From Candidatus Omnitrophota bacterium (GTDB lineage Bacteria; Omnitrophota; Gorgyraeia; Gygaellales; Profunditerraquicolaceae): a stretch of 64,000 nucleotides of DNA. This document shows, piece after piece, positions 10,026 to 41,488 of the stretch. How positions within the stretch are numbered: position 1 is the first letter of the stretch; the number at the start of each line of letters is the position of its first letter. The stretch lies in the NCBI GenBank assembly GCA_028716245.1, contig JAQUQW010000001.1:296793-360792 (forward strand). Reading direction: 5' to 3'. Below the pieces are notes generated by a model. That model worked only from the letters and a program-made list of their open reading frames with translations, was not told the origin of the DNA and ran no database searches. Made by a program: the position numbers and the translations under genes.

Positions 10026-10047
10026 AATTATTAAAGAGGAGGAAGTT

Positions 10048-10803
10048 ATGTCAGGTCATTCTAAATGGAAGACAAATAAGGGGAAAAAAGGCATCGCTGA
10101 TGCTAAAAGAGGGGCAACCTTCACCAAGATTATCAAGGAGCTGGTGGTGGTGGCCAGGGACGGCGGCGGCAATCCCGATTCTAATCCCCGATTACGCGCA
10201 ATAATGCAGAAGGCCAAAGAAGCGAATATGCCTTCGGATAACGTGAAGATGGCAATTAAACGCGGAACCGGCGAGCTGCCCGGGGTAGTCTATGAGGCGG
10301 TAATGTATGAAGCTTACGGCCCGGGAGGCGTTGCGATTTTAATCGATTCGCTTACCGATAATAAAAATCGCACTACCGCCGAGCTGCGTAATCTTATGTC
10401 CAAAAGAGGCGGCAATATGGCCGGGGCAGGCGCGGTAAGCTGGATGTTTACGCAAAAAGGCTATATCTCGGTGGCTAAAGAAAAGATCAAGGAAGATGAA
10501 CTGATGAATATTGTCCTAGATGCCGGCGCCGAAGATATGAAACACGATAATAATCTCTATGAGATTTTCACTTCGATCCAGGATTTGGAAAGAGTAAAGG
10601 CGGCGCTGCAGGAAAAAGGGATCAAATGGGATGACGCGGAGTTAACCATGATTCCCTCATCCACGATTAAAGTTACCGGCAACGAAGCCAAGCAAGTGTT
10701 GGCTTTGATAGAATCGCTGGAGGAGCATGATGATGTGCAGCAGGTTTATGCTAATTTTGATATTCCGGATGAAATTTTAGATCAGGTTGCTTCTGAGCAA
10801 TGA
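10048..10803 (+). CDS. yebC: YebC/PmpR family DNA-binding transcriptional regulator
   Basis: MSGHSKWKTNKGKKGIADAKRGATFTKIIKEL is the canonical N-terminus. AAAGAGGAGG RBS. The ORF-track start at 9979 lies inside rnpB and is rejected. Confidence 0.9.
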   Translation: MSGHSKWKTNKGKKGIADAKRGATFTKIIKELVVVARDGGGNPDSNPRLRAIMQKAKEANMPSDNVKMAIKRGTGELPGVVYEAVMYEAYGPGGVAILIDSLTDNKNRTTAELRNLMSKRGGNMAGAGAVSWMFTQKGYISVAKEKIKEDELMNIVLDAGAEDMKHDNNLYEIFTSIQDLERVKAALQEKGIKWDDAELTMIPSSTIKVTGNEAKQVLALIESLEEHDDVQQVYANFDIPDEILDQVASEQ

Positions 10804-21169: not shown

Positions 21170-23899
21170 ATGAAAAAGCTATTATTCAAATACAGTGGCA
21201 GAGCGCTAGCAAGTTTGGCGCTTTTATCTTTATCGGCTGGTTTGGTTTTTGCCCAAAGCCAGGCGGCAGATTATCTTTGTGAATTGGGTAAAACTTTCTA
21301 TTCTTTAGGCAAGGTTGACGATGCCCTTTCCGAATTTCATAAGGCCCTTCTGGCGGATCCTGCCAATGAAACTGCCAAATTGTATATTAATAAAATTTTT
21401 AATCAAAACTTGAATTCTTCTTCTGAAAATATGGCCCCCGTAAGCGCTCCTGTCTTAGAAGCTAACAATTCAACTGAACCCAAAAAATATATGAGTAAAG
21501 AACAGGCTATGGATGAGGCGATGCTTAAGATGGAACCCAATACTGCCTCAAAAAAAGAGAGCAAAGGAATAAAGGCCGGGCCGCTTACCATAAGCGGACA
21601 GATGCAATTAAGCTTTGGCGTAACTGCCGATGATTTTATCTGGAAAAGGGCTAATTTTGATTTAAATGAAAAATCGAAAAGCTGGCGGATGAGTTCAGAG
21701 GCGGGTTTTAATAACCGGTTCAATACTTTTGATCCCCGGATCTACGATGGCTTAGCTGTTAATTTAGATACGGAAAATAAAGAAGGCTTCAATCTTCATT
21801 CCAATCTTACGGTTGACCCCTGGAGTTTTACCGGTAAGAGCAGTAAAACTACCATTACCAACGGTGGAGACCCCGCCGAAGTAGAATTATTATATTGGTC
21901 AAACACCGGGCTTGTGGTAAATCACACTGTTTACGGGGCGCTGAAAGGAACCACTCTTAATATTCCGGAGCTAAAGGTTGTTGATGAAAAAACTACCGCG
22001 ACCACGATTAATGGCTTTAATATCCCGAGCATGAAGATCCAGCGCCAGTTTCAGCCGGTGCGTGAATTATGGATGGATTACGCAAATGACCAGATAAAAT
22101 TCCGCGCTTTCCCCATGGGCCTGCAGGATCAGGCTTACAGTTCCGATGATCCTATGGGAATCAGCAATCACCATATCTGGTGGAAGGATAGCAGCTGGCT
22201 GCGTAGTTATACCCCCGGAGCGGCCCATTCCGGAAACACTCCCGTTGATTTTACCAAAGGCATTTGGGATGATTCCCTTTCATTTCTGACCAAAGATTCT
22301 ACCGGCAAATACCTTACGGCTTTAAGGGGCTTTTCTTTTAGCTTTTTACCGGATGAAAAATCTTCATTCGATACAACCTTTGCCACTCCTAAGCATCTCT
22401 GGCAGGATTACGGACAAGCGGATAACGTGATTAATGCCAGCCGTCTTAAACATTATTTCACTGATAATTTTATGGCTGGGGCAACCTTTACCAGCCGCAC
22501 GGGCTTTATCACTGAACCTAACCAGAAGCTAGACAGCCAGAATTATGTTGGCGGAGTAGATATTGGTTATGAAATGACCGAAGGATTAAAAGCACAGGCT
22601 GAAGTTTTATCCTCCCAATCTTTTTATGATATGAGTAATTCCGTTTTTAAGACACAGGCCCGCGGCAACGCCTATTATTTTTCATTTATCAGCCGTTACC
22701 CCCAGAAAAGTTTAATGGATTTAAAATACGGTTACGATGAGATAGCTTTGGATAAAGATGAAGATTACCTGCTGAAATCCAAATTTTACTTAAGCAGGAT
22801 GGACCGCGGATTTGATTCTTCTCTTTCCAGTTACCATGAAACCCGCCAGGATACCTTTTGGTCAAGGCATATTCATTTTCGTAAACCAATGGATTATTAT
22901 TCCGCAGGATTATACGATTCTACTACTAATTGGGGGGAGCTTAATTCAACACGGATTGGTGATGGCATTGATGCCGGCAGAAATACCATTGGTTTTCGCG
23001 TTGAATCATCCCTGAAAGATAAAGTCTATAACCTTTTCGACGTACGCAATGTCCATAATGTTAACGGTAAATTTATCGAGAATGTGGTGCGCGATGAAGC
23101 AACGGTAGGAGTTACGGATAAATTAAGCGCCAAAATTCTGGGTATTTACCAGAAACTTCCGCGTACCCTTGGCGGGACCGATCCGTTTATCTATGACGGC
23201 AATACCGGTAATTTTTTTCTCAATGCCGCTGTCCCCGATGGGAATAACCCGTCGATTATCACCGGATCCTTTGGCCTTAATTATGATTTCTTTGATTGGT
23301 TAAGTTTAAACGGTATTTACGAACGCACCAATGATTATTATCTGGCTTATGATGGTTTTCCGGCCAATACTTTACGCGACGATACCAATTTATTCGGTAG
23401 ATTTCATCAAAATGATAACCTTTACTCATTTAAACAGCCGTTTCTTTATAGCCAAGGCGGGTTTCCTCAAGCCCCATACGAATATTATAATGTTTTTAAG
23501 ACCGGCCTAAGAATAATGCCGATTAATAACCTGGAGCTTTACCTTGATTATACGCGTAATCAATTCGAGAGTGCCGCCCAAAACTCGGATGGGATGAACC
23601 ATGTTGGCATTGAAATGACTTATATGCCAACTAAGAAGTTCGGAATGGCTTTAAAATATACTTACTCCCGGTGGCAGGATACTGACCGGCTGGTTGCCGG
23701 CAACACTAACCCGCTTGGCCACCATAATTTCTTCGGTGAATTTAGATATCTGCCTTCCAGGGATGATGAATTTATCCTGCAATACGGAGAGGGCAATACC
23801 AGTAATTTAGGTAACTTTTCCCTTGATCCTTACGGAGGCACCTCCCTCACCATTGATACTGCGCATATCTTGCGCGCCTATTACCGCAGAAAGTTTTAA
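21170..23899 (+). CDS. large secreted outer-membrane beta-barrel candidate (909 aa) with N-terminal TPR-like helix pair
   Basis: Signal peptide (MKKLLFKYSGRALASLALLSLSAGLVFAQS), a beta-rich body with alternating hydrophobic residues, and a C-terminal YYRRKF ending in Phe (OMP targeting signature). Confidence 0.6.
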   Translation: MKKLLFKYSGRALASLALLSLSAGLVFAQSQAADYLCELGKTFYSLGKVDDALSEFHKALLADPANETAKLYINKIFNQNLNSSSENMAPVSAPVLEANNSTEPKKYMSKEQAMDEAMLKMEPNTASKKESKGIKAGPLTISGQMQLSFGVTADDFIWKRANFDLNEKSKSWRMSSEAGFNNRFNTFDPRIYDGLAVNLDTENKEGFNLHSNLTVDPWSFTGKSSKTTITNGGDPAEVELLYWSNTGLVVNHTVYGALKGTTLNIPELKVVDEKTTATTINGFNIPSMKIQRQFQPVRELWMDYANDQIKFRAFPMGLQDQAYSSDDPMGISNHHIWWKDSSWLRSYTPGAAHSGNTPVDFTKGIWDDSLSFLTKDSTGKYLTALRGFSFSFLPDEKSSFDTTFATPKHLWQDYGQADNVINASRLKHYFTDNFMAGATFTSRTGFITEPNQKLDSQNYVGGVDIGYEMTEGLKAQAEVLSSQSFYDMSNSVFKTQARGNAYYFSFISRYPQKSLMDLKYGYDEIALDKDEDYLLKSKFYLSRMDRGFDSSLSSYHETRQDTFWSRHIHFRKPMDYYSAGLYDSTTNWGELNSTRIGDGIDAGRNTIGFRVESSLKDKVYNLFDVRNVHNVNGKFIENVVRDEATVGVTDKLSAKILGIYQKLPRTLGGTDPFIYDGNTGNFFLNAAVPDGNNPSIITGSFGLNYDFFDWLSLNGIYERTNDYYLAYDGFPANTLRDDTNLFGRFHQNDNLYSFKQPFLYSQGGFPQAPYEYYNVFKTGLRIMPINNLELYLDYTRNQFESAAQNSDGMNHVGIEMTYMPTKKFGMALKYTYSRWQDTDRLVAGNTNPLGHHNFFGEFRYLPSRDDEFILQYGEGNTSNLGNFSLDPYGGTSLTIDTAHILRAYYRRKF

Positions 23900-23967: not shown

Positions 23968-26900
23968 TTATTCAAGATAAATATCGATTTGCTTAATTTG
24001 GCGTGATCTTACTTTTTGGGCATAAAGCGGGCCAAGCGTTGCGGATTTTATTTCTATAGGGTGATCGTTTTCAAAAATGATTATTTTGGAAATTTTTGCC
24101 GCGTTTTTTCCAAAAGTATTTTTTCTTTTCGGATTATGGTAAGTTACCCGGATTTGGCTTAAGAAATTAAAAGCATATTTTCCATTCCTATCGAATAACC
24201 AGCCGGCCAGGTTTGGTTTAAATGTTAAATTAAGCTCTCCGTTATTATCTAAAGAAAATGGGCAGGCCCCGGCATTCATGATCAACCAGATATTCAGGAA
24301 TTCCGCGGTTGAGCCGGAGAGCCTGGCGACAAATCCGTTTCCGTGCAATTTTTTATCGGCAAACACGCTGCTTACCAGAAAAGAGGAATTTTCAAGTATG
24401 CTGCGCCCGTATCTTTGCGGGTCCTGGAAAGGGATGAGCACGTTTTTAAATTCCGCGTAAAATTCATCAATCAACCCGCCTTTAAGCAGCTCCAGGATAT
24501 ATTTATACTCCATATGCAGCCAGATGGATTCATTTTCCAGCCAACCGGGAGTGAATACCCGACATCTGCCGATTTCTTCCGGCATAGAACCAAGGTTGGA
24601 AGTCACTTTATACATTCTAAGTTTTTTATCAAAAAGCGCGCTTTTCTTGGTTGATTTATGCAAAGACAAGAGATGTTTTTTGTCTTCGGTAAGCCTTAAG
24701 GCATGCATTTGGCCTTCAAGAAAGAGAGGGACTGTTTTTTGGGTAAATTTTTTCGGTTTTATACGGTGATCATCAATCAAATCATATTCGGTAATCTCAT
24801 TAATAAAATATGAATTATAAATCCCTTGCCTGCTGTTAAAAGCTTTGCTTAATCCCAACTCAACTTTCTTTAATGCCGCGTCCACAAAACTAATAAGCTT
24901 GGCAACGGCCAAATTTACCGAAATCCCGGAAAAACCAAGGCGTATATTAGAACGGTATGTTTCTTTTAGCGCATTGCTCTTATCCCAATAAGTAAAATCA
25001 TCCTCAGAGAACAAGAGAGAGAGCCCCTCGATAAAATTAGAGATTTCATCGGCAAGTTCAATTTCATTAATCTTTGAATTTTCTAACGCCCCTTTGATCA
25101 TCTTAAGCAGGCGTTTTAGTTCAAAGGTTTCACAACTGGAGGAACCCAAAAGCGCCGGCAGCCCGTTAAGAGAATCAAACCAGTTAGGTTTATTGGCTTC
25201 CATCTCGATACCGGTACCAAAAGGGTCAAGGGAGGCCAATTTATTCGCCGCCAGGCACAGAAGTTTAGCGATAAGGGTAGTGTAATAGATTTGGCCGCTG
25301 CCGGACTGTGCCCTTAAAAGATGCGGATTATCCAAACGTTTGCGCAGTATTTCTTTTTTGGTGGCATCAAGCACAAGGGAGTGCAATTGGCGCGGCAGGC
25401 CGTTATAAAGGACGTATCTTTCGCTGCGCGGCCTGACTAATTCGGCGTTATCATAGAAGGAAAAAACTTTTCGGTGAAAGAATAATTCATTAAATCTTTC
25501 AGGGTAAATCCCCAGGTAACTGTCGATTAAGTCCAGGTTATAGGTCCAGTGGTCAGTCCAAAAGCCTTCAGCATGCTCAGCTTCCTGTGATTTTAGCGCG
25601 GAAGAGAGTATCAGATTTAGAAAATCATCATAAGAACATTTAAGTTTTATTTTATTATCTTCAATAAAGATAATTAACTCACCTGGGGTGAAGGTTTTTT
25701 TAAAAAAGGCGCTAAGTTTATCGATATCATTTTTTTCAGCCACGGCTGCCAGCAGCCTGTAAAGATCCAGGTTGTCTTTGAGCAGGAAACTTTCGCCTTT
25801 TACGATCAGGGGATTAAAACCGTCAGCCTGGATTAGATTCATGAAGAAGACAATATTTTCATCGTTTATCTCAGGATTAAACCAGGGATCATTGCGCCGG
25901 TTTTGGTTTGTATCGCGGTAATTACCGTTGCCTTGGGAAAAATAAGTCGGCTGGAGCACAAACTTATTGTAATCCCTTTCCAGGTCACCGTGTTTACGTG
26001 AATAAAGATAAAAAACCACCCCGGATTTAAAAACTTCCGGGTAGCCGCCGCGCATAATGTTATCCAGGTAAGTCTGTCCGGCGTATAAATCAAAAGCTTT
26101 AGAGCTGCTTTGAGTTAAAATATCATCTTTTAATTCCCGGATTAGTTTGGAACTTTCCTTCATTTTGGTTTCTATGTAACCGAATTTCATAATTTTTCCA
26201 ACCGAACTATTTAAAGTTTTGGTGTCGCGGACCTGGCCGATTACCGAATAAAATGTTTTTTGCTCTTTGGCCCCCAGCTCAAGGCTCATTAAAAGCAAAG
26301 CGCTGGGAGTTTTACTTTTGGTCATTTGCTGGGCAGGATATTGAAATTTATGCTTGGCCAGGAATTGGGCAGGGTAAGAGAAATCGGTTACTGCCCCAAA
26401 AACAGCTTCAGGGTCGACTATTGGCCGGATAAGTTGGGATTTGGTACCATTAAAATGAAAACCCATATAAAAATTCCCGTGCTCAATATGCACTACCTCC
26501 GGCCGGTCCGAAGGGTCAACTGCTAATTTATAAAAAGGGACATCATTATTCAGGTTATCGGTATTCATCCAGGCTTCGATAGTGCGGCCGAGTTTCTTCA
26601 GGAAAAAATTGTTCGTGCCAAAAGGGACAATCTGCGGCAGACCGTCAATAATCTCCATGGACCTGGGTTTAGGCGACGTATTTTCAATAGAAACGGTCCG
26701 GCTTAAGCCGGCGTAGGTATCATTAGGAATATTAAAATATTCTACGCGTGTTTTTATCCCTAATGTCCGGTTTTCTTCTTCCAAAATGAGTTTATCCGAA
26801 TCTATACGCATAGAGTTGGTTATCTGGTACTTTAAATTCAGGCAGCCGTTGTGAAACGGCTCGTAATAGAGAAGTTTTTTTGCGGATTTAATTTTAATGA

Positions 26901-27168
26901 AGGTGCGGAATCCTTGGGCAGAAACAAACTGCCAGGATTTATTCGCCGGAAAGAATTCTAAAATCGACTGGTCTTTATCCTTGGTGCCGAAGCTGCTGAT
27001 ACACTGGCCGCGGTTAACGTAGAAGACCCACATGGGGATCCCGTATTTTCCGGCAATCCCCGGAAAAAAGTTAGCGAAAGGTTTGGCGTAATTGTAATTT
27101 TGGATAACAAATTCGCCCTGTTTATTTAAATAATACTTTACTTTTGCTTGCTTAGATTTTATTTCCAT
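23968..27168 (-). CDS. GH94-like glycoside phosphorylase family protein (1066 aa; cellobiose / beta-1,2-glucan phosphorylase-like six-hairpin fold)
   Basis: N-terminal GH94-like beta-sandwich (FVIQNYNYAKPFANFFPGIAGKYGIPMWVFYVNRGQ), an NWFDSLNGL segment resembling the GH94 GDWNDGLN motif, and a size similar to long GH94 enzymes. Confidence 0.5.
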   Translation of the reverse strand: MEIKSKQAKVKYYLNKQGEFVIQNYNYAKPFANFFPGIAGKYGIPMWVFYVNRGQCISSFGTKDKDQSILEFFPANKSWQFVSAQGFRTFIKIKSAKKLLYYEPFHNGCLNLKYQITNSMRIDSDKLILEEENRTLGIKTRVEYFNIPNDTYAGLSRTVSIENTSPKPRSMEIIDGLPQIVPFGTNNFFLKKLGRTIEAWMNTDNLNNDVPFYKLAVDPSDRPEVVHIEHGNFYMGFHFNGTKSQLIRPIVDPEAVFGAVTDFSYPAQFLAKHKFQYPAQQMTKSKTPSALLLMSLELGAKEQKTFYSVIGQVRDTKTLNSSVGKIMKFGYIETKMKESSKLIRELKDDILTQSSSKAFDLYAGQTYLDNIMRGGYPEVFKSGVVFYLYSRKHGDLERDYNKFVLQPTYFSQGNGNYRDTNQNRRNDPWFNPEINDENIVFFMNLIQADGFNPLIVKGESFLLKDNLDLYRLLAAVAEKNDIDKLSAFFKKTFTPGELIIFIEDNKIKLKCSYDDFLNLILSSALKSQEAEHAEGFWTDHWTYNLDLIDSYLGIYPERFNELFFHRKVFSFYDNAELVRPRSERYVLYNGLPRQLHSLVLDATKKEILRKRLDNPHLLRAQSGSGQIYYTTLIAKLLCLAANKLASLDPFGTGIEMEANKPNWFDSLNGLPALLGSSSCETFELKRLLKMIKGALENSKINEIELADEISNFIEGLSLLFSEDDFTYWDKSNALKETYRSNIRLGFSGISVNLAVAKLISFVDAALKKVELGLSKAFNSRQGIYNSYFINEITEYDLIDDHRIKPKKFTQKTVPLFLEGQMHALRLTEDKKHLLSLHKSTKKSALFDKKLRMYKVTSNLGSMPEEIGRCRVFTPGWLENESIWLHMEYKYILELLKGGLIDEFYAEFKNVLIPFQDPQRYGRSILENSSFLVSSVFADKKLHGNGFVARLSGSTAEFLNIWLIMNAGACPFSLDNNGELNLTFKPNLAGWLFDRNGKYAFNFLSQIRVTYHNPKRKNTFGKNAAKISKIIIFENDHPIEIKSATLGPLYAQKVRSRQIKQIDIYLE

Positions 27169-33730: not shown

Positions 33731-34177
33731 ATGCCTACTGATTTAGAAATGGTTACGCGTTTATTATTGACTTTAACCTTAAGCGGATTAATTGGCCTTG
33801 AGCGGCAGGTCCACCGCAGGGATGCCGGCTTGCGCACGCATATACTGGTAGCTTTAGGTTCATGTCTTATAATGTTGACATCTATATATGTTTTTGATAT
33901 ATATAAAGACAGTGCTTCGCTGGATCCGGCCCGTATTGCCGCCGGGGTAATCACCGGTATTGGATTTCTGGGCGCTGGCGCCATAATCCGTGAACCTGAA
34001 CGGATCCGGGGGCTGACTACCGCTGCCAGTTTATGGGTAGTTGCCGGCATTGGTTTAGCGGTAGGAATCGGTTTTAATAAAGTAGCAATCTATACCACAA
34101 TTTTGGTATTAATCGTTTTGCATTTCTTGCGTTACGTGGAAGGATCGCTCACCAAGGAGGATAAACATGGCATTTAA
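33731..34177 (+). CDS. MgtC/SapB family membrane protein (N-terminal MgtC domain only)
   Basis: LIGLERQVHRRDAGLRTHILVALGSCLIML...AAGVITGIGFLGAGAI. ATG at 33731 with an AAGGAGG RBS. The ORF-track start at 33665 lies inside the leader element and is rejected. Confidence 0.7.
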   Translation: MPTDLEMVTRLLLTLTLSGLIGLERQVHRRDAGLRTHILVALGSCLIMLTSIYVFDIYKDSASLDPARIAAGVITGIGFLGAGAIIREPERIRGLTTAASLWVVAGIGLAVGIGFNKVAIYTTILVLIVLHFLRYVEGSLTKEDKHGI

Positions 34178-34670
34178 AAAGAAACTGGAGGAAAAAACTC
34201 TGGATGTGGACGCGGCAATGCAGGGGACTTTAAGCTTCAAAGATCCGGTTAATCTGCGTATTAATGGAAAATTCGAAGGAAATCTGGATACCCGCGGCAA
34301 CCTTACGGTCGGACCTACCGCCATAATTAATGCCGATATTATCGGGGATAATATTATTATCGGAGGCAAGGTTAAAGGTAAAATTACCGCCCGCGAACGG
34401 CTGACTCTCTTGCCGCAAGCCGTAGTTGAGGGCCATATTTATCCGGCAAAACTTAATGTTGCCGAAGGCGCTATTCTTGAAGGCCAATGTTCGATGCTCC
34501 ATGATTTTCTTAACTCCGAGCAGCTGGCAAAATACCTGGAAGTAGAATTAAGCTCGATCATGGAGTGGGCTAATTCGGGAAAGGTCCCGGCGAATAAAGA
34601 GAATGATGATTGGAAATTCGAACGTAAAGCCATAGACAGCTGGGTGGCTGCGGGTAAAATAGGAAAATAA
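34167..34670 (+). CDS. bactofilin (polymer-forming beta-helix protein) fused to a C-terminal excisionase/MerR-type HTH domain
   Basis: Bactofilin repeat pattern NLRINGKFEGNLDTRGNLTVGPTAIINADIIGDNIIIGGKVKGKITARERLTLLPQAVVEGHIYPAKLNVAEGAILEGQCSM, followed by SEQLAKYLEVELSSIMEWANSGKVPANKENDDWKFERKAIDSWV (HTH_17-like). Overlaps mgtC by 11 nt. Confidence 0.75.
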   Translation: MAFKKKLEEKTLDVDAAMQGTLSFKDPVNLRINGKFEGNLDTRGNLTVGPTAIINADIIGDNIIIGGKVKGKITARERLTLLPQAVVEGHIYPAKLNVAEGAILEGQCSMLHDFLNSEQLAKYLEVELSSIMEWANSGKVPANKENDDWKFERKAIDSWVAAGKIGK

Positions 34671-34683
34671 ACTTACGATAAAA

Positions 34684-34995
34684 ATGAGCGAAGAAAAAAT
34701 GCTGACAGTCAGGGATGTCTCGATTATACTGGGCATATCGGAGAAGGATGTTTTAGATCTAACTGAAAACGGAACGATTCCCGGTTATAAAATAGGAGGC
34801 GTATACTTAAGGTTTAAAAAAGAACAGGTTGAGCAGTATAAAAAAACCCAGCATCACCTGCACCCAAACGCGCTCAAACAGGAATCCGCAGGTTTTGGCA
34901 GCAAGATTTCCGATTTTTTCTATTTCCACGATTTCTATATCCTGGCCGCAATTCTTATAATCCTTTTAGGATATCTTGTTTACCGGGGCCTATAG
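34684..34995 (+). CDS. membrane-anchored excisionase-type HTH DNA-binding protein
   Basis: MLTVRDVSIILGISEKDVLDLTENGTIPGYKIGGVYLRFKKEQVEQY is an HTH_17 domain, followed by a C-terminal TM helix (FFYFHDFYILAAILIILLGYLVY). Confidence 0.6.
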   Translation: MSEEKMLTVRDVSIILGISEKDVLDLTENGTIPGYKIGGVYLRFKKEQVEQYKKTQHHLHPNALKQESAGFGSKISDFFYFHDFYILAAILIILLGYLVYRGL

Positions 34996-35000: not shown

Positions 35001-35672
35001 ATGTCTGTGAAAAAAGGTTTTTGCGATTTAGGGTTTGCCAAGTTTGACATCGATAGAATAAAACGTAAAGGGTTTGCCGAAGTTATTTATTGTCCGGGTA
35101 AGGACCGGGCGCACTTAAAAGAAATTGCCAAAAAAATAACTAAGTCCAAACAAGACCTGTTGTTAACCAAGCTGGACAAAGCCACGTTTTCTTTTTTAAA
35201 GAAAGTTATTCCCGCGTTAAAATATAACCCTCTGGCAAAAATCGGCTATCTCTTAGCAAAACCTAAAATCCTCTCTAGAGGTTCGATTTTAGTGGTTTCC
35301 GCGGGCACCAGCGACATTCCTATAGCTGAAGAAGCGGCGCAAACCTTGGAAATTATGGGTAATCGCGTTGAAAGATTATACGATGTCGGCGTAGCCGGCG
35401 TACACCGCCTGATGGATAATATTGAGAAATTAAAACTAGCTCAGGTAATCATTGTTGTGGCGGGAATGGAAGGGGCTTTACCAAGTTTAGTCAGCGGGTT
35501 GGTCAAGGCGCCGATTATCGCGGTTCCGACCAGCTGCGGCTATGGCTCCAGTTTTTCCGGTCTGGCCGCGCTGCTGACGATGTTAAACGGATGCTCGCCG
35601 GGGGTCACAGTGGTAAATATAGATAACGGGTTCGGGGCGGGTTATTTTGCCAGTTTGATCAACAGGGGATAA
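35001..35672 (+). CDS. larB: LarB-like PurE-fold protein (nickel-pincer cofactor biosynthesis carboxylase family)
   Basis: PurE-like core (ILVVSAGTSDIPIAEEAAQTLEIMGNRVERLYDVGVAGVHRL...VIIVVAGMEGALPSLVSGLVKAPIIAVPTS) with an N-terminal extension of about 85 aa, as in LarB. Confidence 0.6.
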   Translation: MSVKKGFCDLGFAKFDIDRIKRKGFAEVIYCPGKDRAHLKEIAKKITKSKQDLLLTKLDKATFSFLKKVIPALKYNPLAKIGYLLAKPKILSRGSILVVSAGTSDIPIAEEAAQTLEIMGNRVERLYDVGVAGVHRLMDNIEKLKLAQVIIVVAGMEGALPSLVSGLVKAPIIAVPTSCGYGSSFSGLAALLTMLNGCSPGVTVVNIDNGFGAGYFASLINRG

Positions 35673-35674
35673 TC

Positions 35675-37006
35675 ATGGCGTTATCGGGTTTAGATATTTA
35701 TAAGTTATTACCTAAAACAAACTGCCGCCAGTGCGGATTTGCTACTTGCCTGGCTTTTGCCATGCAGCTGGCTAAAAAAGCGGTCACAATTGAAAAATGC
35801 CCTTTTATTTCGCCGGAAGCTAAAATGATTTTAGAGGCGCAAGCCCAGCCTCCGATTAAACCAATTATTTTAGGCAATAAGGAATCAAATTTTGAGGTCG
35901 GCAATGAAACAGTAATGTTCAGGCATGAAGAAAAATTCCGTAATCCGGCAGGAATCGGTTTTATTATCGAAGATAATCTAAGTGAGGCGGAAATAAAAGC
36001 CAGGCTTAAAGAAATCAATCAGTTAAAATTTGAACGGGTAGGCCAGCTGCTGGAAGTTAATCTGTTGGCTTTAAAACAAAATAAGGACGCTAAAAGTTTT
36101 CTTGAGGCGACTAAATTGTTCCTGGACAATACTCCTTTACCGCTAATGTTGATGAGCGGCGACTTAGCAGCTTTAAGGCAGGCAGCGGAAATCGCCAAAG
36201 ACCGTAAACCCCTGCTTTATTGCGCCACCAAGGATAATTTCGCCCAAATTGGAGCGATTGCCAAAGAGTTTGGGCTGCCGCTGGTAGCAACCGCGCAGAA
36301 TTTTGATAATCTCTCTGAACTTACCAAAGAACTTAACGCCTTAGGGGTACATAACCTGATTTTAGATACCGGGAAGAAATCCGTGACTGATAAAATCTGG
36401 GACTTAACGCAATTACGCCGCCAGGCGCTTAAAAAATCCAACCGGACATTGGGATATCCTGCTTTGGCGATCGTCGATAAAACCGATCCTTACGAAGAAG
36501 CTGTCGAGGCAACCGCTTATATCGCTAAATACGCCGGGATTGTTTTGATCAAAGGCACCGCGGCCTGGGAAATCATCTCTATTTTGACCTTAAGGCAGAA
36601 TATTTATACCGACCCGCAGAAACCCCTGCAGATCGAATCCAAGCTTTATCCGATAGGGCAAGTCAATCCGGATTCCCCGGTTTTAATCACGACTAACTTT
36701 TCCTTAAGCTATTTTACTGTTTTAGGAGAAGTGGAGGCCAGCAAAATACCGGCTTATATTTTAAGCGTGGATACTCAAGGCATGTCTGTGCTTACCGCCT
36801 GGGCCGCAGAAAAATTCAACGCCGAATGTATCACTAAATCCCTGGCTGACCATGGCGTTAAAAACGCGATCAAACACAAGAATTTGATTATCCCAGGGTA
36901 TGTGGCGATAATCAGCGGCGACCTTGCGGACAAGTCGGGTTTTGAAATAATCGTCGGCCCTAAAGAAGCGGCGGGGATCCCTGCGTTTCTAAAAAACCTA
37001 AACTGA
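35675..37006 (+). CDS. acsC: corrinoid iron-sulfur protein large subunit (acetyl-CoA decarbonylase/synthase gamma subunit)
   Basis: N-terminal 4Fe-4S motif LPKTNCRQCGFATCLAFAMQLAKK...KCP, a TIM-barrel pterin-binding-like middle domain, and a size of about 443 aa typical of AcsC/CdhE. Confidence 0.8.
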   Translation: MALSGLDIYKLLPKTNCRQCGFATCLAFAMQLAKKAVTIEKCPFISPEAKMILEAQAQPPIKPIILGNKESNFEVGNETVMFRHEEKFRNPAGIGFIIEDNLSEAEIKARLKEINQLKFERVGQLLEVNLLALKQNKDAKSFLEATKLFLDNTPLPLMLMSGDLAALRQAAEIAKDRKPLLYCATKDNFAQIGAIAKEFGLPLVATAQNFDNLSELTKELNALGVHNLILDTGKKSVTDKIWDLTQLRRQALKKSNRTLGYPALAIVDKTDPYEEAVEATAYIAKYAGIVLIKGTAAWEIISILTLRQNIYTDPQKPLQIESKLYPIGQVNPDSPVLITTNFSLSYFTVLGEVEASKIPAYILSVDTQGMSVLTAWAAEKFNAECITKSLADHGVKNAIKHKNLIIPGYVAIISGDLADKSGFEIIVGPKEAAGIPAFLKNLN

Positions 37007-38931
37007 TGCAAAAATTCAAAGTTACATTCTTACCGGATAATAAAACTGTTTCTGTCGATAAAGACTCAACCGTACTTTCGGCGGCAATCTCGGCAGGAGT
37101 CTATATCAATTCTACCTGCGGCGGAGATGGGATTTGCGGAAGGTGCAAAGTTGTCGTAAAAGGACAGGTTACCAGCCAGCCCAATGGGATAATTACTCCC
37201 GAGGAACGCAAGAATAATATCTATTTAGCCTGCCTGACAAATGTCCATGGAGACTTAGAGGTCCAGGTTCCCGATAGTTCACGGCTTAATTTTGATAAGC
37301 TTACTCCTGAAGAATTAGAGGAGCGTTTAAACGGGTTTTATTCAAAAGCAGAAGAGATCTCTCCGGTAAAAGCAAAATTTGAAGACCGGGTTTTTAAGCA
37401 TTCTCCATTTGCCACAAAATTATATCTTGAACTGCCTAAACCGACGATTAATGACAGTATCAGCGATCTGGAAAGGCTATACCGGGCCCTGAGGAATTTT
37501 GAAGAATTTCCCGTAATCCAGGCCGGCTTATTTAATATCCGCCAGCTGGGTGAATTATTGCGCGATTATGAATGGAAAGTTACCGTAACGCTGGGTAAAC
37601 GCAATAATACGGTTGAGATCGTGCTCATTGAGCCCGGCGATACAACGCAGAAGAACTTCGGGCTTTGTTTTGATATCGGCACAACTACAATTTCCGGCCA
37701 ACTGGTAAATCTAAATTCAAAAAAAATCCTGGGAACAAAAGCCGCTTATAATCAACAGGCGGCTTTCGGCAGCGATGTAATTACGCGCATAATTCACGCG
37801 GCAAAAAGCGATGGCTTGGAACAGTTGCATAATGCCGTTTGCGACACAATAAACCAGATTATCAAAGACCTGGTTTTAGAACACAAGGTGGATTTAAACA
37901 CGGTTAACTGCATTGTCTGCTCGGGGAACACTACAATGATACATCTGCTTTTAAATATGGATCCTTCCCATATCCACAGGGAACCGTATGTTCCGACGGC
38001 AAACTTCCTGCCGGTAGTGCGGGCCGCAGAAGCCGGAATAAATATTAACCCCAGAGGCCTGCTGGCTTGCGTTTCGGGGGTCTCTAGTTTCGTCGGCGGG
38101 GATACTACCGCCGGAGTTCTATCCAGCGGGTTATACCAAAAAGAAAAACCCTGCATATTAATTGATATTGGCACAAACGGGGAAATTGTTTTAGGTAATC
38201 AAGAATTCCTGGTTGCCTGCGCGGCATCCGCCGGCCCGGCTTTTGAAGGCAGCGGGGTCACCAGCGGGATGCGGGCAAGCAGCGGGGCGATCCAAAAAGT
38301 GCGCATCGATAGAAAAGATTTTAATGTTAAATATTCCGTGATCCAGGATAAAAAACCCAAGGGGATTTGCGGCTCGGGTTATATCGACCTGCTCAGTGAA
38401 ATGCTAGAGGCAAGGATAATTGATAAGAGCGGAAAAATCAAAGCCCAAAACCATCGGCGTATCCGCCAAACCGATCTTGGTTATGAATTTGTGGTTTGTT
38501 TTAAAGAAGAAACCGCTGCCGGCTCGGATATTGTGATTAACGAAGCCGACATTGAAAACCTTAAACGCTCTAAAGGAGCGATATATTCAGCCACCTCGAT
38601 TTTAGTTAAACATTTGGGTTTGGAATTTGCGGCAATCCATAAGTTTTATATTGCCGGAGGGTTTGGAACCTACCTGGACATTGAAAAAGCAATCAGGATA
38701 GGGTTATTACCGGATTTGGAACGCGCAAAGTTTGTTTTTATCGGGAACAGTTCCCTGGCAGGGGCAAGAGAGATACTTTTATCAAGCCAAGCGATGGAGA
38801 TGGGGGATAATCTTGCCTCGAAAATCACTTATTTTGAATTATCGGTTGAACCCGGATATATGGAGGAGTATAGCCAGGCTTTATTCTTTCCGCATACGGA
38901 TTTAACCAAATTCCCAACGGTGAAATTTTAA
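37006..38931 (+). CDS. corrinoid activation/regeneration protein (RACo; 2Fe-2S ferredoxin + ASKHA ATPase)
   Basis: N-terminal plant-type 2Fe-2S domain (CGGDGICGRCKV ... ACLT) followed by an ASKHA/DUF4445 ATPase domain (DIGTTTISGQLV, IDIGTNGEIV). About 640 aa, as in RACo. Confidence 0.75.
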   Translation: MQKFKVTFLPDNKTVSVDKDSTVLSAAISAGVYINSTCGGDGICGRCKVVVKGQVTSQPNGIITPEERKNNIYLACLTNVHGDLEVQVPDSSRLNFDKLTPEELEERLNGFYSKAEEISPVKAKFEDRVFKHSPFATKLYLELPKPTINDSISDLERLYRALRNFEEFPVIQAGLFNIRQLGELLRDYEWKVTVTLGKRNNTVEIVLIEPGDTTQKNFGLCFDIGTTTISGQLVNLNSKKILGTKAAYNQQAAFGSDVITRIIHAAKSDGLEQLHNAVCDTINQIIKDLVLEHKVDLNTVNCIVCSGNTTMIHLLLNMDPSHIHREPYVPTANFLPVVRAAEAGININPRGLLACVSGVSSFVGGDTTAGVLSSGLYQKEKPCILIDIGTNGEIVLGNQEFLVACAASAGPAFEGSGVTSGMRASSGAIQKVRIDRKDFNVKYSVIQDKKPKGICGSGYIDLLSEMLEARIIDKSGKIKAQNHRRIRQTDLGYEFVVCFKEETAAGSDIVINEADIENLKRSKGAIYSATSILVKHLGLEFAAIHKFYIAGGFGTYLDIEKAIRIGLLPDLERAKFVFIGNSSLAGAREILLSSQAMEMGDNLASKITYFELSVEPGYMEEYSQALFFPHTDLTKFPTVKF

Positions 38932-39684
38932 ATGGGTAAAATCATCGCGCTAGCCGGAAAAGGCGGGACCGGAAAAACCACGCTGAGCGCTTTAATTATC
39001 CGTTTGATTAAAGAAAAAAAATTGGGTTCGGTTTTAGCTATTGATGCTGACCCGAATAGTAATTTAGGGGAGGCGCTGGGGGTAAAATCCGAGGAGAGCA
39101 TCGGTAAAATACTTGATCTTATATGCACTGACCCGGATAAAGTTCCAACCGGTATGACCAAGGAGCGTTTTATTCAGCATCAAGTGCAATCGGCAATCCA
39201 GGAAGAGCAAGGTTTTGACATCTTAAGCATGGGTAAGCCGGAAGGCCCGGGTTGTTATTGTTACGTCAATAATGTCCTGCGCGGAGTAATCACCAAGCTG
39301 ATTCATGACTACGATTACATCGTAATCGATAATGAGGCCGGGTTAGAGCATTTGTCCCGGCGCACCACTCGCTTTGCCGACATACTCATTGTTGTTTCAG
39401 ATGCCTCCAGCGTCGGCTTAAAGTCGGCCAAAAGAATCATCGACTTAGTAAAGCAGCTGAAATTTGAAGTAAAAAAAAGTTTTCTTTTGATTAACCGTTT
39501 TAACAAAAACATCGATAATGAAAAAATCAAGGCAACCGGCCTGAATTATTTAGGCAATCTGCCCAATGATCTGGAAATCGAAAATTTAAGCCTTGAAGGA
39601 AAATCAATTTTTGAATTGAAATCAAACGCGCCGGTATTTAAGGCGCTTAATTTACTGGGAGAGCAAATATGGGAACGCAATTAG
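38932..39684 (+). CDS. cooC: CooC/AcsF-type nickel-insertion accessory ATPase (MinD/ParA superfamily)
   Basis: Deviant Walker A GKGGTGKTT and the CooC-like CxC motif region (GPGCYCYVNN). Confidence 0.75.
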   Translation: MGKIIALAGKGGTGKTTLSALIIRLIKEKKLGSVLAIDADPNSNLGEALGVKSEESIGKILDLICTDPDKVPTGMTKERFIQHQVQSAIQEEQGFDILSMGKPEGPGCYCYVNNVLRGVITKLIHDYDYIVIDNEAGLEHLSRRTTRFADILIVVSDASSVGLKSAKRIIDLVKQLKFEVKKSFLLINRFNKNIDNEKIKATGLNYLGNLPNDLEIENLSLEGKSIFELKSNAPVFKALNLLGEQIWERN

Positions 39685-40604
39685 TGCTCGAGAAATGGCC
39701 GGGAATTATCTCCACCGTAATCATCGGGGCCACCAAAGATGAAGGAGGTTCCCGGGCAAATACCGTAAAGATCGGCGGACAAAACAGTTTGCCTTTGTTA
39801 TTTAAAGAAGGGGATCTTCCCAATAAACCCAAAATCGCTTTTGAAATCTGGGACATTGCCCCGCAAGACTGGCAGGAGGAGTTAATTTCTGCCTACGGAA
39901 AAGCGGTAAATGATCCTTTTGCCTGGGCGGAAAAATGCGTCAATGAGTTTAAAGCGGAAATACTCTGCCTAAAATTGCAGGGAACGCATCCTGATTGCGG
40001 CAACAAAACTCCTCAGGAGTCAGCTAAATTCGTCTCGGCTTTATTAAATAAGGTCAAACTCCCTTTAATAATTATCGGAAGCGGCGACGATACCAAGGAT
40101 AACCTGGTTATGCCTGTAGTTTCAGAAGCGGCTAAGAAAGAACGCTGTTTGATTGGCTGCGCGGCACAGGATAATTATAAAACCTTAGTTGCCAGCGGAT
40201 TAGCCGACGGCCACAGCATTATTGCCGAAAGCCCCATCGATATCAATATTGCCAAACAATTGAATATATTGATTTCCGATATGGGATTAAGCTTAGAGCG
40301 CATCGTGATTAATCCGACTATCGGAGCATTGGGCTATGGCCTTGAATATGCCTACTCGATTATGGAACGGGCAAGATTGGCCGCTCTATCCGGCGATAAA
40401 ACCCTAGCTTCACCGTTTATTTGTTTTGTGGGGCAGGAGGCCTGGAGGACTAAAGAAGCCAAAGTCAGCCTGGAACAGGGAATTATGTGGGAGACAATTA
40501 CTGCCACCAGCCTCATTCAATCGGGAGCGGATCTTTTGGTTATGCGCCACCCCAAAGCAGTGCAGAAAGTGCACAATTTCATTGAAACATTATATCGAGG
40601 ATAA
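39669..40604 (+). CDS. acsD: corrinoid iron-sulfur protein small subunit (acetyl-CoA decarbonylase/synthase delta subunit)
   Basis: TIM-barrel AcsD-like sequence of about 311 aa, positioned between cooC and acsE as in acs operons. Confidence 0.7.
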   Translation: MGTQLVLEKWPGIISTVIIGATKDEGGSRANTVKIGGQNSLPLLFKEGDLPNKPKIAFEIWDIAPQDWQEELISAYGKAVNDPFAWAEKCVNEFKAEILCLKLQGTHPDCGNKTPQESAKFVSALLNKVKLPLIIIGSGDDTKDNLVMPVVSEAAKKERCLIGCAAQDNYKTLVASGLADGHSIIAESPIDINIAKQLNILISDMGLSLERIVINPTIGALGYGLEYAYSIMERARLAALSGDKTLASPFICFVGQEAWRTKEAKVSLEQGIMWETITATSLIQSGADLLVMRHPKAVQKVHNFIETLYRG

Positions 40605-40606
40605 GT

Positions 40607-41404
40607 ATGCTTGTTATTGGTGAACTGATTAATGGGATGTATCCGGAAATTGCTCTGGCAATTAAAGAGCGCGATAAGAAAATAGTGCAAAAATACGCGC
40701 TCCAACAGGTTGACTGCGGCGCCGATGCCCTCGATGTCAACTGCGGTCCGGCTTCGGCTAAACCATTATTGGATATGCCCTGGCTGGTTGAAATAATTCA
40801 AGAGGTAACCGATAAACCGCTGAGCCTTGATTCCAGTAAGCCTGAGGCCATTAAAGAAGGCTTAAAAGCCGCCAGGAATAAAACAATTATCAATTCTACC
40901 ACAGCGGATCCGGAAAAGCTGGACATTCTTGTTCCTTTAGCCAAACAGTATAATTCCAAATTAATCGGGATCACTATCAACTTAAAAGGAATCCCCCAAA
41001 ACAAAGACCAGCGCGTGGAATTAGCGGCAATAATCGTCGCCTATTGCCAAGAAAATGAATTCCCCATCGAAGATCTTTATTTAGACCCGATACTGTTGCC
41101 GATTAATGTCGCTCAGGGGCAAATGATTGATATTTTAGAATCTATCCGCGAATTCAAGATAATCTCCGAGCCAAGCCCCAAGACCATTCTGGGCTTAAGC
41201 AATGTTTCCCAGGGCACGCACACTCATAATACACATAGCCTGATCAACCGCACATTTTTAACAATGGCAGTTGCGTATGGCTTGGATTCTGCTATACTTA
41301 ATCCTGAAGATAAAGAGCTGATGGACAGCTTGATTACCGCAGAGCTTATTTTGAATAAAAATATTTACTGTAATTCGTATCTAGAGGCTTACAGAAAAAA
41401 GTGA
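40607..41404 (+). CDS. acsE: methyltetrahydrofolate:corrinoid iron-sulfur protein methyltransferase (pterin-binding, DHPS-like)
   Basis: Pterin-binding barrel (IGELINGM...DCGADALDVNCGP...LSLDSSKPEA...INSTT) of about 265 aa. Confidence 0.75.
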   Translation: MLVIGELINGMYPEIALAIKERDKKIVQKYALQQVDCGADALDVNCGPASAKPLLDMPWLVEIIQEVTDKPLSLDSSKPEAIKEGLKAARNKTIINSTTADPEKLDILVPLAKQYNSKLIGITINLKGIPQNKDQRVELAAIIVAYCQENEFPIEDLYLDPILLPINVAQGQMIDILESIREFKIISEPSPKTILGLSNVSQGTHTHNTHSLINRTFLTMAVAYGLDSAILNPEDKELMDSLITAELILNKNIYCNSYLEAYRKK

Positions 41405-41411: not shown

Positions 41412-41488
41412 GGCGGAGTAGCTCAGCCTGATAGAGCACGCGGCTCATACCCGCTTGGTCGGTGGTTTAAATCCACTCTCCGCCACCA
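41412..41488 (+). tRNA. tRNA with CAU anticodon (tRNA-Ile2/lysidine-type or Met); CCA encoded
   Basis: Manual fold. Fully paired acceptor stem GGCGGAG/CTCCGCC, anticodon loop CUCAUAC, T arm GGTGGTTTAAATCCACT. The body resembles E. coli ileX more than metT, and tilS lies 2.3 kb downstream. Confidence 0.8.

What the first reader, a model, noticed from the sequence alone, without database searches (positions are those of the whole stretch)
35001..41404. Orphan corrinoid Fe-S protein module (acsC-RACo-cooC-acsD-acsE) without CODH/ACS catalytic genes, preceded by larB
Five consecutive genes encode the corrinoid iron-sulfur protein large subunit, its reductive activator RACo (2Fe-2S plus ASKHA ATPase), a CooC-type Ni-insertion ATPase, the CFeSP small subunit, and the methyl-H4folate:CFeSP methyltransferase AcsE.

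In Wood-Ljungdahl operons these sit next to acsA/acsB (CODH and acetyl-CoA synthase). Here the cluster is bounded upstream by larB and the HTH genes and downstream by a tRNA, so acsA and acsB are not adjacent.

Either they lie elsewhere, as a split operon, or this is a stand-alone methyl-transfer and corrinoid-repair module feeding a different acceptor.

CooC, a maturation factor for the Ni centres of CODH/ACS, sits beside a LarB-like gene from the Ni-pincer cofactor pathway. The juxtaposition is curious and may hint at shared Ni handling.
Basis: partly seen in the sequence, partly recalled or inferred. Interest (0 to 1): 0.6.

Follow-up and report, generated by a model that had tools for sequence, protein, structure and literature searches.

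The report
Half of a split Wood-Ljungdahl operon
The five genes are real and intact, but they are not orphaned: they are the usual second half of a Wood-Ljungdahl (acetyl-CoA pathway) gene cluster in an uncultured Omnitrophota bacterium, the acetyl-CoA synthase gene sits about 260 genes away on the same contig, and the larB neighbour is explained by conserved gene order.

Summary
On the + strand, 35001-41404 encodes LarB, AcsC, RACo/AcsV, a CooC-family ATPase, AcsD and AcsE, followed by tRNA-Met. No acsA or acsB lies in the 64-kb window.

The "orphan" reading fails. The window matches a Candidatus Omnitrophota MAG (proteins MDD5476937-42, contig 649,478 bp). That same contig encodes an 854-aa AcsB (MDD5477199.1) with all A-cluster cysteines, about 260 genes away.

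On a related 590-kb contig, acsB lies in fchA-folD-metF-acsB, about 230 kb from a copy of this module. More distant Omnitrophota carry one contiguous cluster, metF-(cooC-acsA-cooF-oxidoreductase)-acsB-acsC-RACo-cooC-acsD-acsE. The window lineage therefore shows a derived split.

In 31 close relatives no acsA lies upstream of acsB. AcsB also carries a decayed piece of the lost oxidoreductase gene. This fits the CODH-less Wood-Ljungdahl pathway published for Omnitrophota in 2023. CODH status of this genome was not tested directly.

The "CooC" is the positional equivalent of the ACS-specific paralogue (AcsF).

larB belongs to a roughly 10-gene housekeeping block conserved across the clade. One relative carries the acs module inside a trp operon without larB. 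Nothing supports shared nickel handling.

The finding is ordinary and of low interest.

The parts
35001..35672 (+). larB (pyridinium-3,5-biscarboxylic acid mononucleotide synthase). It is the upstream neighbour, 2 nt from acsC. I treat it as a synteny neighbour and not as part of the module.
   Evidence: NCBIfam LarB equivalog scores 286 bits against a cutoff of 175. It scores 228 bits against 7MJ0, with the active-site Cys aligned. It is NCBI MDD5476937.1. larB lies upstream of acsC in 34 of 37 related loci, always as part of the conserved gatA..HTH block.
35675..37006 (+). acsC, the large (gamma) subunit of the corrinoid iron-sulfur protein
   Evidence: NF003195 scores 556 bits against a cutoff of 306. 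C17-X2-C20-X4-C25-X16-C42 is present. It scores 454 bits over its full length against C. hydrogenoformans CFeSP 2H9A. It is 100% identical to MDD5476938.1.
37006..38931 (+). RACo/AcsV, the ATP-dependent reductive activator of the corrinoid protein (2Fe-2S domain plus ASKHA ATPase)
   Evidence: Pfam Fer2, RACo_linker, Raco_middle and RACo_C_ter all hit. It scores 530 bits against 3ZYY over residues 1-639. NCBIfam AcsV scores 665 bits, below the exception cutoff of 800.
38932..39684 (+). CooC-family Ni-insertion ATPase at the AcsF position, the paralogue linked to ACS rather than CODH
   Evidence: GKGGTGKT and PGCYC are present. The best PDB hit is CooC1, 3KJE, at E = 4.6e-21 with the CxC motif aligned. 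Paralogues at the same position in other loci are 41-75% identical, while the acsA-adjacent paralogues are 29-36% identical. The gene order equals that of Moorella, acsC-ferredoxin/orf7-'cas'-acsD-acsE (PMC8671834).
39669..40604 (+). acsD, the small (delta) subunit of the corrinoid iron-sulfur protein
   Evidence: NF003376 scores 392 bits against a cutoff of 280. It scores 306 bits against Moorella CFeSP small subunit 4DJD_D.
40607..41404 (+). acsE, the methyl-H4folate:CFeSP methyltransferase
   Evidence: NF005719 scores 295 bits against a cutoff of 259. It scores 263 bits against 2YCI and 249 bits against 1F6Y.
41412..41488 (+). tRNA-Met (CAT), the conserved downstream boundary of the module
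   Evidence: ARAGORN and Rfam both find it. It is present after acsE in 10 of 10 syntenic relatives checked and absent from L114.

Best explanation
This is the methyl-handling half of the Wood-Ljungdahl acs gene cluster of an uncultured Omnitrophota bacterium. By AcsB similarity it belongs to class Velamenicoccia and is probably close to the family Profunditerraquicolaceae.

The proposed mechanism is inferred from homology to the characterised Moorella and Carboxydothermus proteins.
- AcsE moves the methyl group between methyl-H4folate and the cobalt of the AcsC/AcsD corrinoid iron-sulfur protein.
- RACo uses ATP and its 2Fe-2S cluster to re-reduce corrinoid that has oxidised to Co(II).
- The CooC-family ATPase at the AcsF position loads nickel into acetyl-CoA synthase.
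- The methylated corrinoid protein exchanges its methyl group with AcsB, which makes or cleaves acetyl-CoA.

AcsB is encoded about 260 genes away on the same contig. In relatives it lies in the cluster fchA-folD-metF-acsB.

The two-locus layout is a derived split of an ancestral contiguous cluster, metF-(cooC-acsA-cooF-oxidoreductase)-acsB-acsC-RACo-cooC-acsD-acsE, which more distant Omnitrophota still have.

In the window's lineage the CODH genes were deleted from between metF and acsB. The pathway is therefore probably the CODH-less form already described for Omnitrophota. It would either use external CO or run in the acetyl-CoA-cleaving direction.

larB is a bystander. The module sits between larB and tRNA-Met inside a long array of unrelated housekeeping genes.
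For: - **Identity of the five proteins.** All are full length, with strong matches to characterised Wood-Ljungdahl proteins and with their cofactor motifs present.
- **AcsB in the same genome.** P0516 (854 aa, NCBI) has a single contig of 649,478 bp, the same as P0001, which is the window's AcsC. The accessions are MDD5477199.1 for AcsB and MDD5476937-42 for the window's genes. Cys506, 509, 518, 528, 595, Gly596 and Cys597 are all present.
- **Both loci on one contig in a relative.** On ERZ27297473 k141_931320 (589,957 bp), fchA-folD-metF-acsB lies at 131-154 kb (L004) and the syntenic larB-acsC..acsE lies at 364-385 kb (L005).
- **Derived split.** Among 80 genome loci found with AcsB, those with at least 63% identity have acsA upstream in 0 of 31, metF upstream in 29 of 31, and acsC downstream in 0 of 36. 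Those below 63% have acsA in 16 of 24 and acsC directly downstream in 5 of 27. Among 80 metagenome loci found with AcsC, those below 58% identity have acsB directly upstream in 22 of 28, and those at or above 58% in 0 of 37.
- **Deletion scar.** The N-terminal 125 aa of P0516 align (E = 7e-6) with the NAD-binding part of the oxidoreductase encoded between cooF and acsB in L052. The glycine-rich motif is lost.
- **Literature.** Omnitrophota Velamenicoccia and Gorgyraia have a Wood-Ljungdahl pathway. Twenty-four species, including some Profunditerraquicolaceae, lack AcsA and CooS/F (PMC10066038). L012, with AcsB about 80% identical, is Amyimicrobium silvilacustre of that family.
- **larB as bystander.** The whole array gatA-gatB-ctp-deacetylase-tsaD-mgtC-bactofilin-HTH-larB is conserved wherever larB precedes acsC. 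L114 carries the module inside a trp operon without larB.
Against: - The rest of this genome could not be read, so cooS or acsA at a third locus is not excluded. The published family-level data are mixed.
- fhs, fdh, larA, larC and larE were not examined.
- The fchA-folD-metF context of acsB was seen in relatives (AcsB up to 83% identical over the full length), not in this genome. This genome is not among the species representatives searched.
- The AcsF assignment rests on position and paralogue similarity. No tree with experimentally characterised AcsF was built.
- larB and acsC are only 2 nt apart and are probably co-transcribed, so a regulatory link cannot be formally excluded.
- There are no expression or biochemical data.
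Confidence: 0.85

Rival explanations
1. The pathway is a complete, conventional Wood-Ljungdahl pathway. The module works with AcsB as described, but a CODH (cooS or acsA) is encoded at a third locus, so the organism can reduce CO2 to CO and is an ordinary acetogen or CO2 fixer.
For: Seymour et al. list Profunditerraquicolaceae among the families with the CooS-containing 'most complete' pathway as well as among those lacking it. Only about 40 kb per related genome was inspected here. Monofunctional cooS genes are often unlinked to acs genes.
Against: None of 31 close relatives has acsA within 4.5-10 kb upstream of acsB, where more distant relatives have it. The AcsB N-terminus carries a decayed fragment of the gene that used to follow cooS-cooF. 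The acsA-linked CooC paralogue is also missing from these loci.
Confidence: 0.3
2. The module is a stand-alone methyl-transfer and corrinoid-repair unit that feeds an acceptor other than acetyl-CoA synthase.
For: No acsA or acsB lies within 64 kb. In L114 the five genes move as a cassette.
Against: A canonical AcsB with intact A-cluster ligands is on the same contig. The module includes a CooC/AcsF-type nickel insertase, whose only known clients are CODH and ACS. The same five genes in the same order directly follow acsB in more distant relatives. No alternative corrinoid methyltransferase is present in the window.
Confidence: 0.04
3. larB is functionally coupled to the module. For example, a nickel-pincer-type cofactor or shared nickel trafficking could serve ACS/CFeSP maturation.
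For: larB is 2 nt upstream of acsC. The adjacency holds in 34 of 37 loci with AcsC identity down to 59%, and in one locus at 47%. LarB is a true orthologue with its catalytic Cys.
Against: The adjacency is never separable from a roughly 10-gene housekeeping synteny block. L114 and all contiguous acs clusters lack larB. No larC, larE or larA lies nearby. Full-text searches combining LarB with CFeSP or Wood-Ljungdahl terms returned no papers. ACS and CFeSP from Moorella and Carboxydothermus are structurally defined without any such cofactor (my own knowledge of those structures).
Confidence: 0.03

Closest known systems
acs gene cluster of Moorella thermoacetica and Carboxydothermus hydrogenoformans (cooC-acsA-acsB-acsC-orf7/RACo-acsF-acsD-acsE)
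   Same: The five genes are the same and in the same order, acsC-RACo-CooC/AcsF-acsD-acsE (PMC8671834). The matches to the solved proteins are full length: 2H9A and 4DJD (CFeSP), 3ZYY (RACo), 2YCI and 1F6Y (MeTr), and 3KJE (CooC1). The AcsC Fe-S motif and the CooC CxC motif are present.
   Different: Here the cluster is cut between acsB and acsC. acsB lies about 260 genes away, next to the folate-branch genes. acsA and its CooC are not next to acsB in close relatives. AcsB has an extra N-terminal remnant domain of about 125 aa.
Partial Wood-Ljungdahl pathway of Omnitrophota, Velamenicoccus archaeovorus type (Seymour et al. 2023, PMC10066038)
   Same: The phylum is the same and probably the class. 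An AcsB-E set is present, and AcsA/CooS/F is absent at the expected place. UBA6210 (Velamenicoccus sp., L084) shows fchA-folD-metF-acsB without acsA.
   Different: That paper reports presence or absence by orthologue tables, not gene order. The split into two loci, the conserved larB...tRNA-Met insertion site and the oxidoreductase remnant on AcsB are not mentioned in the parts I read. CODH absence was not verified for this genome.
Incomplete Wood-Ljungdahl pathway of Dehalococcoides mccartyi (Zhuang et al. 2014, as cited in PMC6113397)
   Same: ACS plus CFeSP occur without a CO dehydrogenase. This shows experimentally that such a set can work in the cleavage direction, taking acetyl-CoA to a methyl group plus CO.
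   Different: The phylum differs. By my recollection D. mccartyi also lacks methylene-H4folate reductase, whereas relatives of this organism have metF, folD and fchA next to acsB. The direction of flux here is unknown.

Membership tests
Bacterial CFeSP (AcsC/AcsD) of the Wood-Ljungdahl pathway | The large subunit has an N-terminal [4Fe-4S] motif CX2CX4CX16C and a full-length CdhD-type TIM-barrel plus corrinoid domain. | tested here: met
   C17, C20, C25 and C42 are present. NF003195 scores 556 bits against a cutoff of 306. It scores 454 bits against 2H9A over residues 1-441.
Bacterial CFeSP (AcsC/AcsD) of the Wood-Ljungdahl pathway | The small subunit AcsD is encoded alongside. | tested here: met
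   NF003376 scores 392 bits against a cutoff of 280. It scores 306 bits against 4DJD_D.
Bacterial CFeSP (AcsC/AcsD) of the Wood-Ljungdahl pathway | A partner acetyl-CoA synthase (AcsB) with intact A-cluster ligands is present in the same genome. | tested here: met
   P0516 = MDD5477199.1 is on the same 649,478-bp contig. All Cys ligands and the Cys-Gly-Cys motif are present.
Bacterial CFeSP (AcsC/AcsD) of the Wood-Ljungdahl pathway | The protein binds a corrinoid and transfers methyl groups to ACS. | not testable with these tools
   This needs biochemistry.
Complete CODH/ACS system | A Ni-CODH (AcsA or CooS) is present in the genome. | tested here: inconclusive
   It is absent from the window. 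It is absent upstream of acsB in 31 of 31 close relatives and present in 16 of 24 distant ones.
RACo / AcsV reductive activase | N-terminal 2Fe-2S ferredoxin domain, linker, middle domain and C-terminal ASKHA ATPase domain. | tested here: met
   All four Pfam RACo domains plus Fer2 score above their cutoffs. It scores 530 bits against 3ZYY over its full length. The Cys pattern C38/C44/C47/C76 is present. The NCBIfam AcsV 'exception' model scores 665 bits, below its cutoff of 800.
CooC/AcsF Ni-insertion ATPases | Deviant Walker A (GKGGxGKT) and a Cys-X-Cys metal-binding motif. | tested here: met
   GKGGTGKT is at residues 9-16 and the CYC motif lies within PEGPGCYCYVNN. Both align with CooC1, 3KJE.
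CooC/AcsF Ni-insertion ATPases | Assignment to the ACS-specific (AcsF) clade rather than the CODH-specific (CooC) clade. | tested here: inconclusive
   Position (between RACo and acsD) and paralogue identity favour AcsF: 41-75% identity to same-position genes against 29-36% to acsA-adjacent genes. No tree with characterised AcsF was built, and no NCBIfam model reached its cutoff.
MeTr (AcsE) | A pterin-binding TIM barrel of the methyl-H4folate:CFeSP methyltransferase type. | tested here: met
   NF005719 scores 295 bits against a cutoff of 259. It scores 263 bits against 2YCI and 249 bits against 1F6Y, compared with 96 bits against MetH.
Nickel-pincer (NPN) cofactor pathway | A LarB orthologue with the catalytic cysteine. 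| tested here: met
   NF033503 scores 286 bits against a cutoff of 175. It aligns to 7MJ0 over its full length, including the Cys of LNSCASG, which is LNGCSPG here.
Nickel-pincer (NPN) cofactor pathway | LarC and LarE (and a LarA-type user enzyme) are present. | not tested
   None is in the 64-kb window.

The most novel reading that the evidence does not exclude
The lineage has truly lost every CO dehydrogenase but keeps an intact ACS, CFeSP, RACo, AcsF and MeTr together with the folate branch. On that reading these ultra-small, possibly host-dependent bacteria would do one of two things. They could make acetyl-CoA from formate plus CO obtained from neighbours or hosts such as acetoclastic methanogens. 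Or they could run the system backwards to draw C1 units from acetyl-CoA while releasing CO, as Dehalococcoides does. The two-locus architecture and the oxidoreductase remnant fused to AcsB would then mark a specific evolutionary transition from autotrophic to CO-dependent metabolism.
Probability: 0.35. Interest if true: 0.4.

Novelty: new member of a known kind. Interest (0 to 1): 0.15.

Why it matters
It matters little beyond correct annotation. The result shows that the 'orphan' appearance is an effect of window size. It also corrects three weak NCBI names: RACo is named 'ASKHA domain-containing protein', the AcsF/CooC ATPase 'AAA family ATPase', and AcsE 'dihydropteroate synthase'.

The comparative by-products have modest value for people who study Omnitrophota metabolism or the evolution of CODH-less acetyl-CoA pathways:
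- an ancestral contiguous cluster that split between acsB and acsC;
- cooS-cooF-oxidoreductase deleted, leaving a fused remnant on AcsB;
- a five-gene cassette that can relocate;
- a separate AcsB subclade that has lost its nickel-binding Cys-Gly-Cys.

The larB neighbour gives no lead on new users of the nickel-pincer cofactor.

Tried and rejected
- **Exact look-ups of window proteins.** Looking up the window's AcsC, RACo and AcsB on indexed contigs failed, because this assembly is not indexed for positions. I could not walk along the contig. I used contig length and consecutive NCBI accessions instead.
- **Search with Moorella AcsB.** It returned only Firmicutes. Omnitrophota AcsB was reached through the 50%-representative search and cluster names.
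- **P0260 as a possible AcsB of this genome.** P0260 lacks the Cys-Gly-Cys motif, which briefly suggested a degenerate ACS in this genome. That was rejected, because the genome's own AcsB (P0516) is canonical.
- **This genome in the species-representative collection.** The genome is not there; the best full-length AcsB match is 83%. Its acsB neighbourhood is therefore inferred from relatives.
- **Per-genome KO tables in Seymour et al.** The supplements held as text did not contain acsA or cooS calls per genome.
- **Literature on LarB.** Searches linking LarB to CFeSP or the Wood-Ljungdahl pathway found nothing. A 2026 Omnitrophota preprint has nothing on the Wood-Ljungdahl pathway.
- **Promoter and terminator scan of 27-44 kb.** It gave no more sites than shuffled sequence.
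- **Rfam.** It found no riboswitch near the module.

Full report
**What is there**

The stretch 35001-41404 holds six tightly packed + strand ORFs. Gaps or overlaps between them are -16 to +2 nt.

- LarB, 35001-35672. The NCBIfam equivalog scores 286 bits against a cutoff of 175. It scores 228 bits against the L. plantarum LarB structure 7MJ0, with the catalytic Cys aligned.
- AcsC, 35675-37006. It scores 556 bits against a cutoff of 306, carries the motif C17-X2-C20-X4-C25-X16-C42, and scores 454 bits against 2H9A.
- RACo/AcsV, 37006-38931. Fer2 and all three RACo-specific Pfam domains hit, and it scores 530 bits over its full length against 3ZYY.
- A CooC-family ATPase, 38932-39684. It has GKGGTGKT and a CYC motif, and its best solved relative is CooC1, 3KJE.
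- AcsD, 39669-40604.
- AcsE, 40607-41404.

tRNA-Met follows 8 nt later.

I scanned every ORF of at least 100 aa that I took as a gene in the 64-kb window. The others are housekeeping genes, among them dnaG, rpoD, lepA, aromatic amino-acid genes, gatAB, ctp, tsaD, ftsH, folP and thr/leu genes. There is no acsA, acsB, cooS, fhs, folD, metF, larA, larC or larE. tblastn with Moorella AcsB gives nothing better than E = 0.5. I wrote the Moorella AcsB sequence from memory and checked it against PDB 1OAO chain C, where it scores 1696 bits over residues 1-729.

**Whose genome**

The window's AcsC is 100% identical to an NCBI protein from a 'Candidatus Omnitrophica bacterium' MAG on a 649,478-bp contig. 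Exact look-ups give MDD5476937.1 to MDD5476942.1 for the six genes.

**Is it orphaned? No**

I obtained an Omnitrophota AcsB in three steps: a Moorella AcsB search, then the 50%-representative library, then cluster names. I used that protein as the query for a further search.

One hit, P0516 (854 aa, NCBI, Omnitrophica), has a single contig of 649,478 bp and the accession MDD5477199.1. It lies on the same contig, 261 accession numbers after AcsC. P0516 has all the A-cluster ligands: Cys506, 509, 518, 528 and the Cys595-Gly596-Cys597 motif in Moorella numbering.

A related contig was readable at both places. On ERZ27297473 k141_931320 (589,957 bp), the cluster fchA-folD-metF-acsB lies at 131-154 kb. 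A fully syntenic copy of larB-acsC-RACo-cooC-acsD-acsE lies at 364-385 kb.

**How the layout arose**

A scan of species-representative genomes with P0516 gave 80 loci, nearly all Omnitrophota. A metagenome scan with the window's AcsC gave another 80. I annotated both sets by local tblastn.

Genome loci found with AcsB, grouped by identity to the AcsB of the related contig (L004):

| AcsB identity | acsA upstream | metF upstream | acsC downstream |
|---|---|---|---|
| 63% or more | 0 of 31 | 29 of 31 | 0 of 36 |
| below 63% | 16 of 24 | 22 of 24 | 5 of 27 |

The acsA counts use loci with at least 4.5 kb upstream. The acsC counts use loci with at least 2 kb downstream. Locus L081 (fen_1320) is an example of a contiguous cluster: metF-acsB-acsC-RACo-cooC-acsD-acsE.

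Metagenome loci found with AcsC, counting those with at least 900 bp upstream:

| AcsC identity to the window | acsB directly upstream | larB upstream |
|---|---|---|
| below 58% | 22 of 28 | 1 of 28 |
| 58% or more | 0 of 37 | 34 of 37 |

In L052 the full upstream order is metF, cooS (635 aa), cooF-like ferredoxin, FAD/NAD oxidoreductase (421 aa), acsB, TPR.

The extra 125 N-terminal residues of the window genome's AcsB align with residues 112-233 of that oxidoreductase (E = 7e-6). The dinucleotide-binding glycine motif is lost. Other Omnitrophota have the whole oxidoreductase fused to AcsB, giving 1029-aa proteins that carry PF07992.

The simplest history has two steps. An ancestral contiguous cluster was cut between acsB and acsC. 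Then cooS-cooF and most of the oxidoreductase gene were deleted, which left a scar on AcsB.

**Relation to the literature**

Seymour et al. 2023 (PMC10066038) describe Wood-Ljungdahl genes in Omnitrophota classes Velamenicoccia and Gorgyraia. [quoted passage not shown] They report 19 species that do have CooS.

Of the loci with AcsB about 80% identical to this genome's, L012 is one whose genome appears in that study. It is their Amyimicrobium silvilacustre, of Velamenicoccia, Gygaellales, Profunditerraquicolaceae. UBA6233, from the same family, and UBA6210, a Velamenicoccus species, also appear among the loci.

The CODH-less state is thus plausible and already published. Dehalococcoides mccartyi is the experimental precedent for ACS plus CFeSP working without CODH, in the cleavage direction with CO release (Zhuang et al. 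2014, as cited in PMC6113397).

**The 'CooC'**

Loci that have acsA carry a second CooC-family gene next to it, with the motif GGxGCxCPEN. It is only 29-36% identical to the window protein. The gene between RACo and acsD is 41-75% identical to the window protein and shares its EGPxCYC motif.

The order acsC, ferredoxin/orf7, second CooC/AcsF isoform, acsD, acsE is the canonical Moorella order (PMC8671834). The window gene is therefore the positional equivalent of AcsF, the ACS-linked paralogue. It is retained in a lineage that has ACS but apparently no CODH at that locus. I did not build a tree with characterised AcsF.

**larB**

The adjacency is conserved. Wherever larB precedes acsC, however, the whole upstream array is conserved too: gatA-gatB-ctp-polysaccharide deacetylase-tsaD-mgtC-bactofilin/HTH-HTH-larB. 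This holds even in L142, where AcsC is only 47% identical. The downstream tRNA-Met is conserved as well. Often psyn, tilS, ftsH and folP follow it.

In L114 the same five-gene module sits inside a trp operon, in the order trpG-D-C-F, PsbP-like, the module, trpB-A. There is no larB and no tRNA-Met. None of the contiguous clusters has larB.

No larC, larE or larA lies in the window. Full-text searches linking LarB to CFeSP or the Wood-Ljungdahl pathway found no papers. The adjacency is explained by the place where the module landed in a compact, highly syntenic genome. Nothing points to shared nickel handling.

**Other checks**

- Promoter-like and terminator-like sites in 27-44 kb are no more frequent than in shuffled sequence.
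- Rfam shows no riboswitch near the module.

**Verdict**

The 'split operon' branch is right. The 'stand-alone module' branch and the nickel-link idea are not supported.

The feature is an ordinary, intact member of a well-known system in a phylum where the system has already been reported. Its novelty is limited to gene-order details. I score interest at 0.15.

The main open point is whether this genome has any CODH. One hmmsearch on the public assembly would settle that.

Noticed in passing
Not in the window: proteins P0260, P0438 and P0439 (e.g. NCBI MDD3987422.1), Omnitrophota AcsB of 715-717 aa: A subclade of Omnitrophota AcsB keeps the four [4Fe-4S] cysteines of the A-cluster. It has Ser/Gly-Gly-Tyr in place of the nickel-binding Cys595-Gly596-Cys597, and LSxLLRTG in place of LAGxxGGG (alignment A1). 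P0254 has Cys-Ser-Tyr at the same place. These could be acetyl-CoA synthase homologues without a Ni-Ni site. The window genome's own AcsB is canonical.
   Followed up: partly
Not in the window: P0516 (AcsB of the same contig), residues 1-125. Compare L052 8743-10008.: AcsB of this lineage carries an N-terminal extension. The extension is a decayed fragment of the FAD/NAD oxidoreductase gene that lies between cooF and acsB in distant relatives (E = 7e-6, glycine motif lost). Other Omnitrophota have the whole oxidoreductase fused to AcsB, giving 1029-aa proteins with PF07992.
   Followed up: partly
L114 10001-15919 (JGI contig Ga0074199_1000214): The same five-gene acsC-RACo-cooC-acsD-acsE module is inserted in a tryptophan operon, between trpF plus a PsbP-like gene and trpB-trpA. 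There is no larB or tRNA-Met. The module therefore relocates as a cassette.
   Followed up: partly
window 34167-34670 and 34684-34995: A bactofilin domain is fused to a C-terminal HTH_17 (excisionase-like) domain. It is followed by a second small HTH_17 protein with a hydrophobic C-terminal tail. Both are conserved upstream of larB in all syntenic relatives. Their function is unknown.
   Followed up: no
window 21170-23899 (+), 23968-27168 (-), 54696-56048 (+): These are large ORFs of 909, 1066 and 450 aa. The first and third have no Pfam or NCBIfam family. The 1066-aa protein has only a weak N-terminal match to a GH149 beta-1,3-glucan phosphorylase, and it is conserved next to gatC in relatives.
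   Followed up: no
window 9692-10027 (+): A bacterial RNase P RNA, class A, scores 167 bits. It overlaps the 5' end of the mechanically called YebC ORF at 9979-10803, so that ORF's true start is probably further downstream.
   Followed up: no
window 37006-38931, 38932-39684, 40607-41404: The NCBI product names for three of the module's genes are uninformative or misleading: 'ASKHA domain-containing protein' for RACo, 'AAA family ATPase' for the CooC/AcsF ATPase, and 'dihydropteroate synthase' for AcsE.
   Followed up: yes
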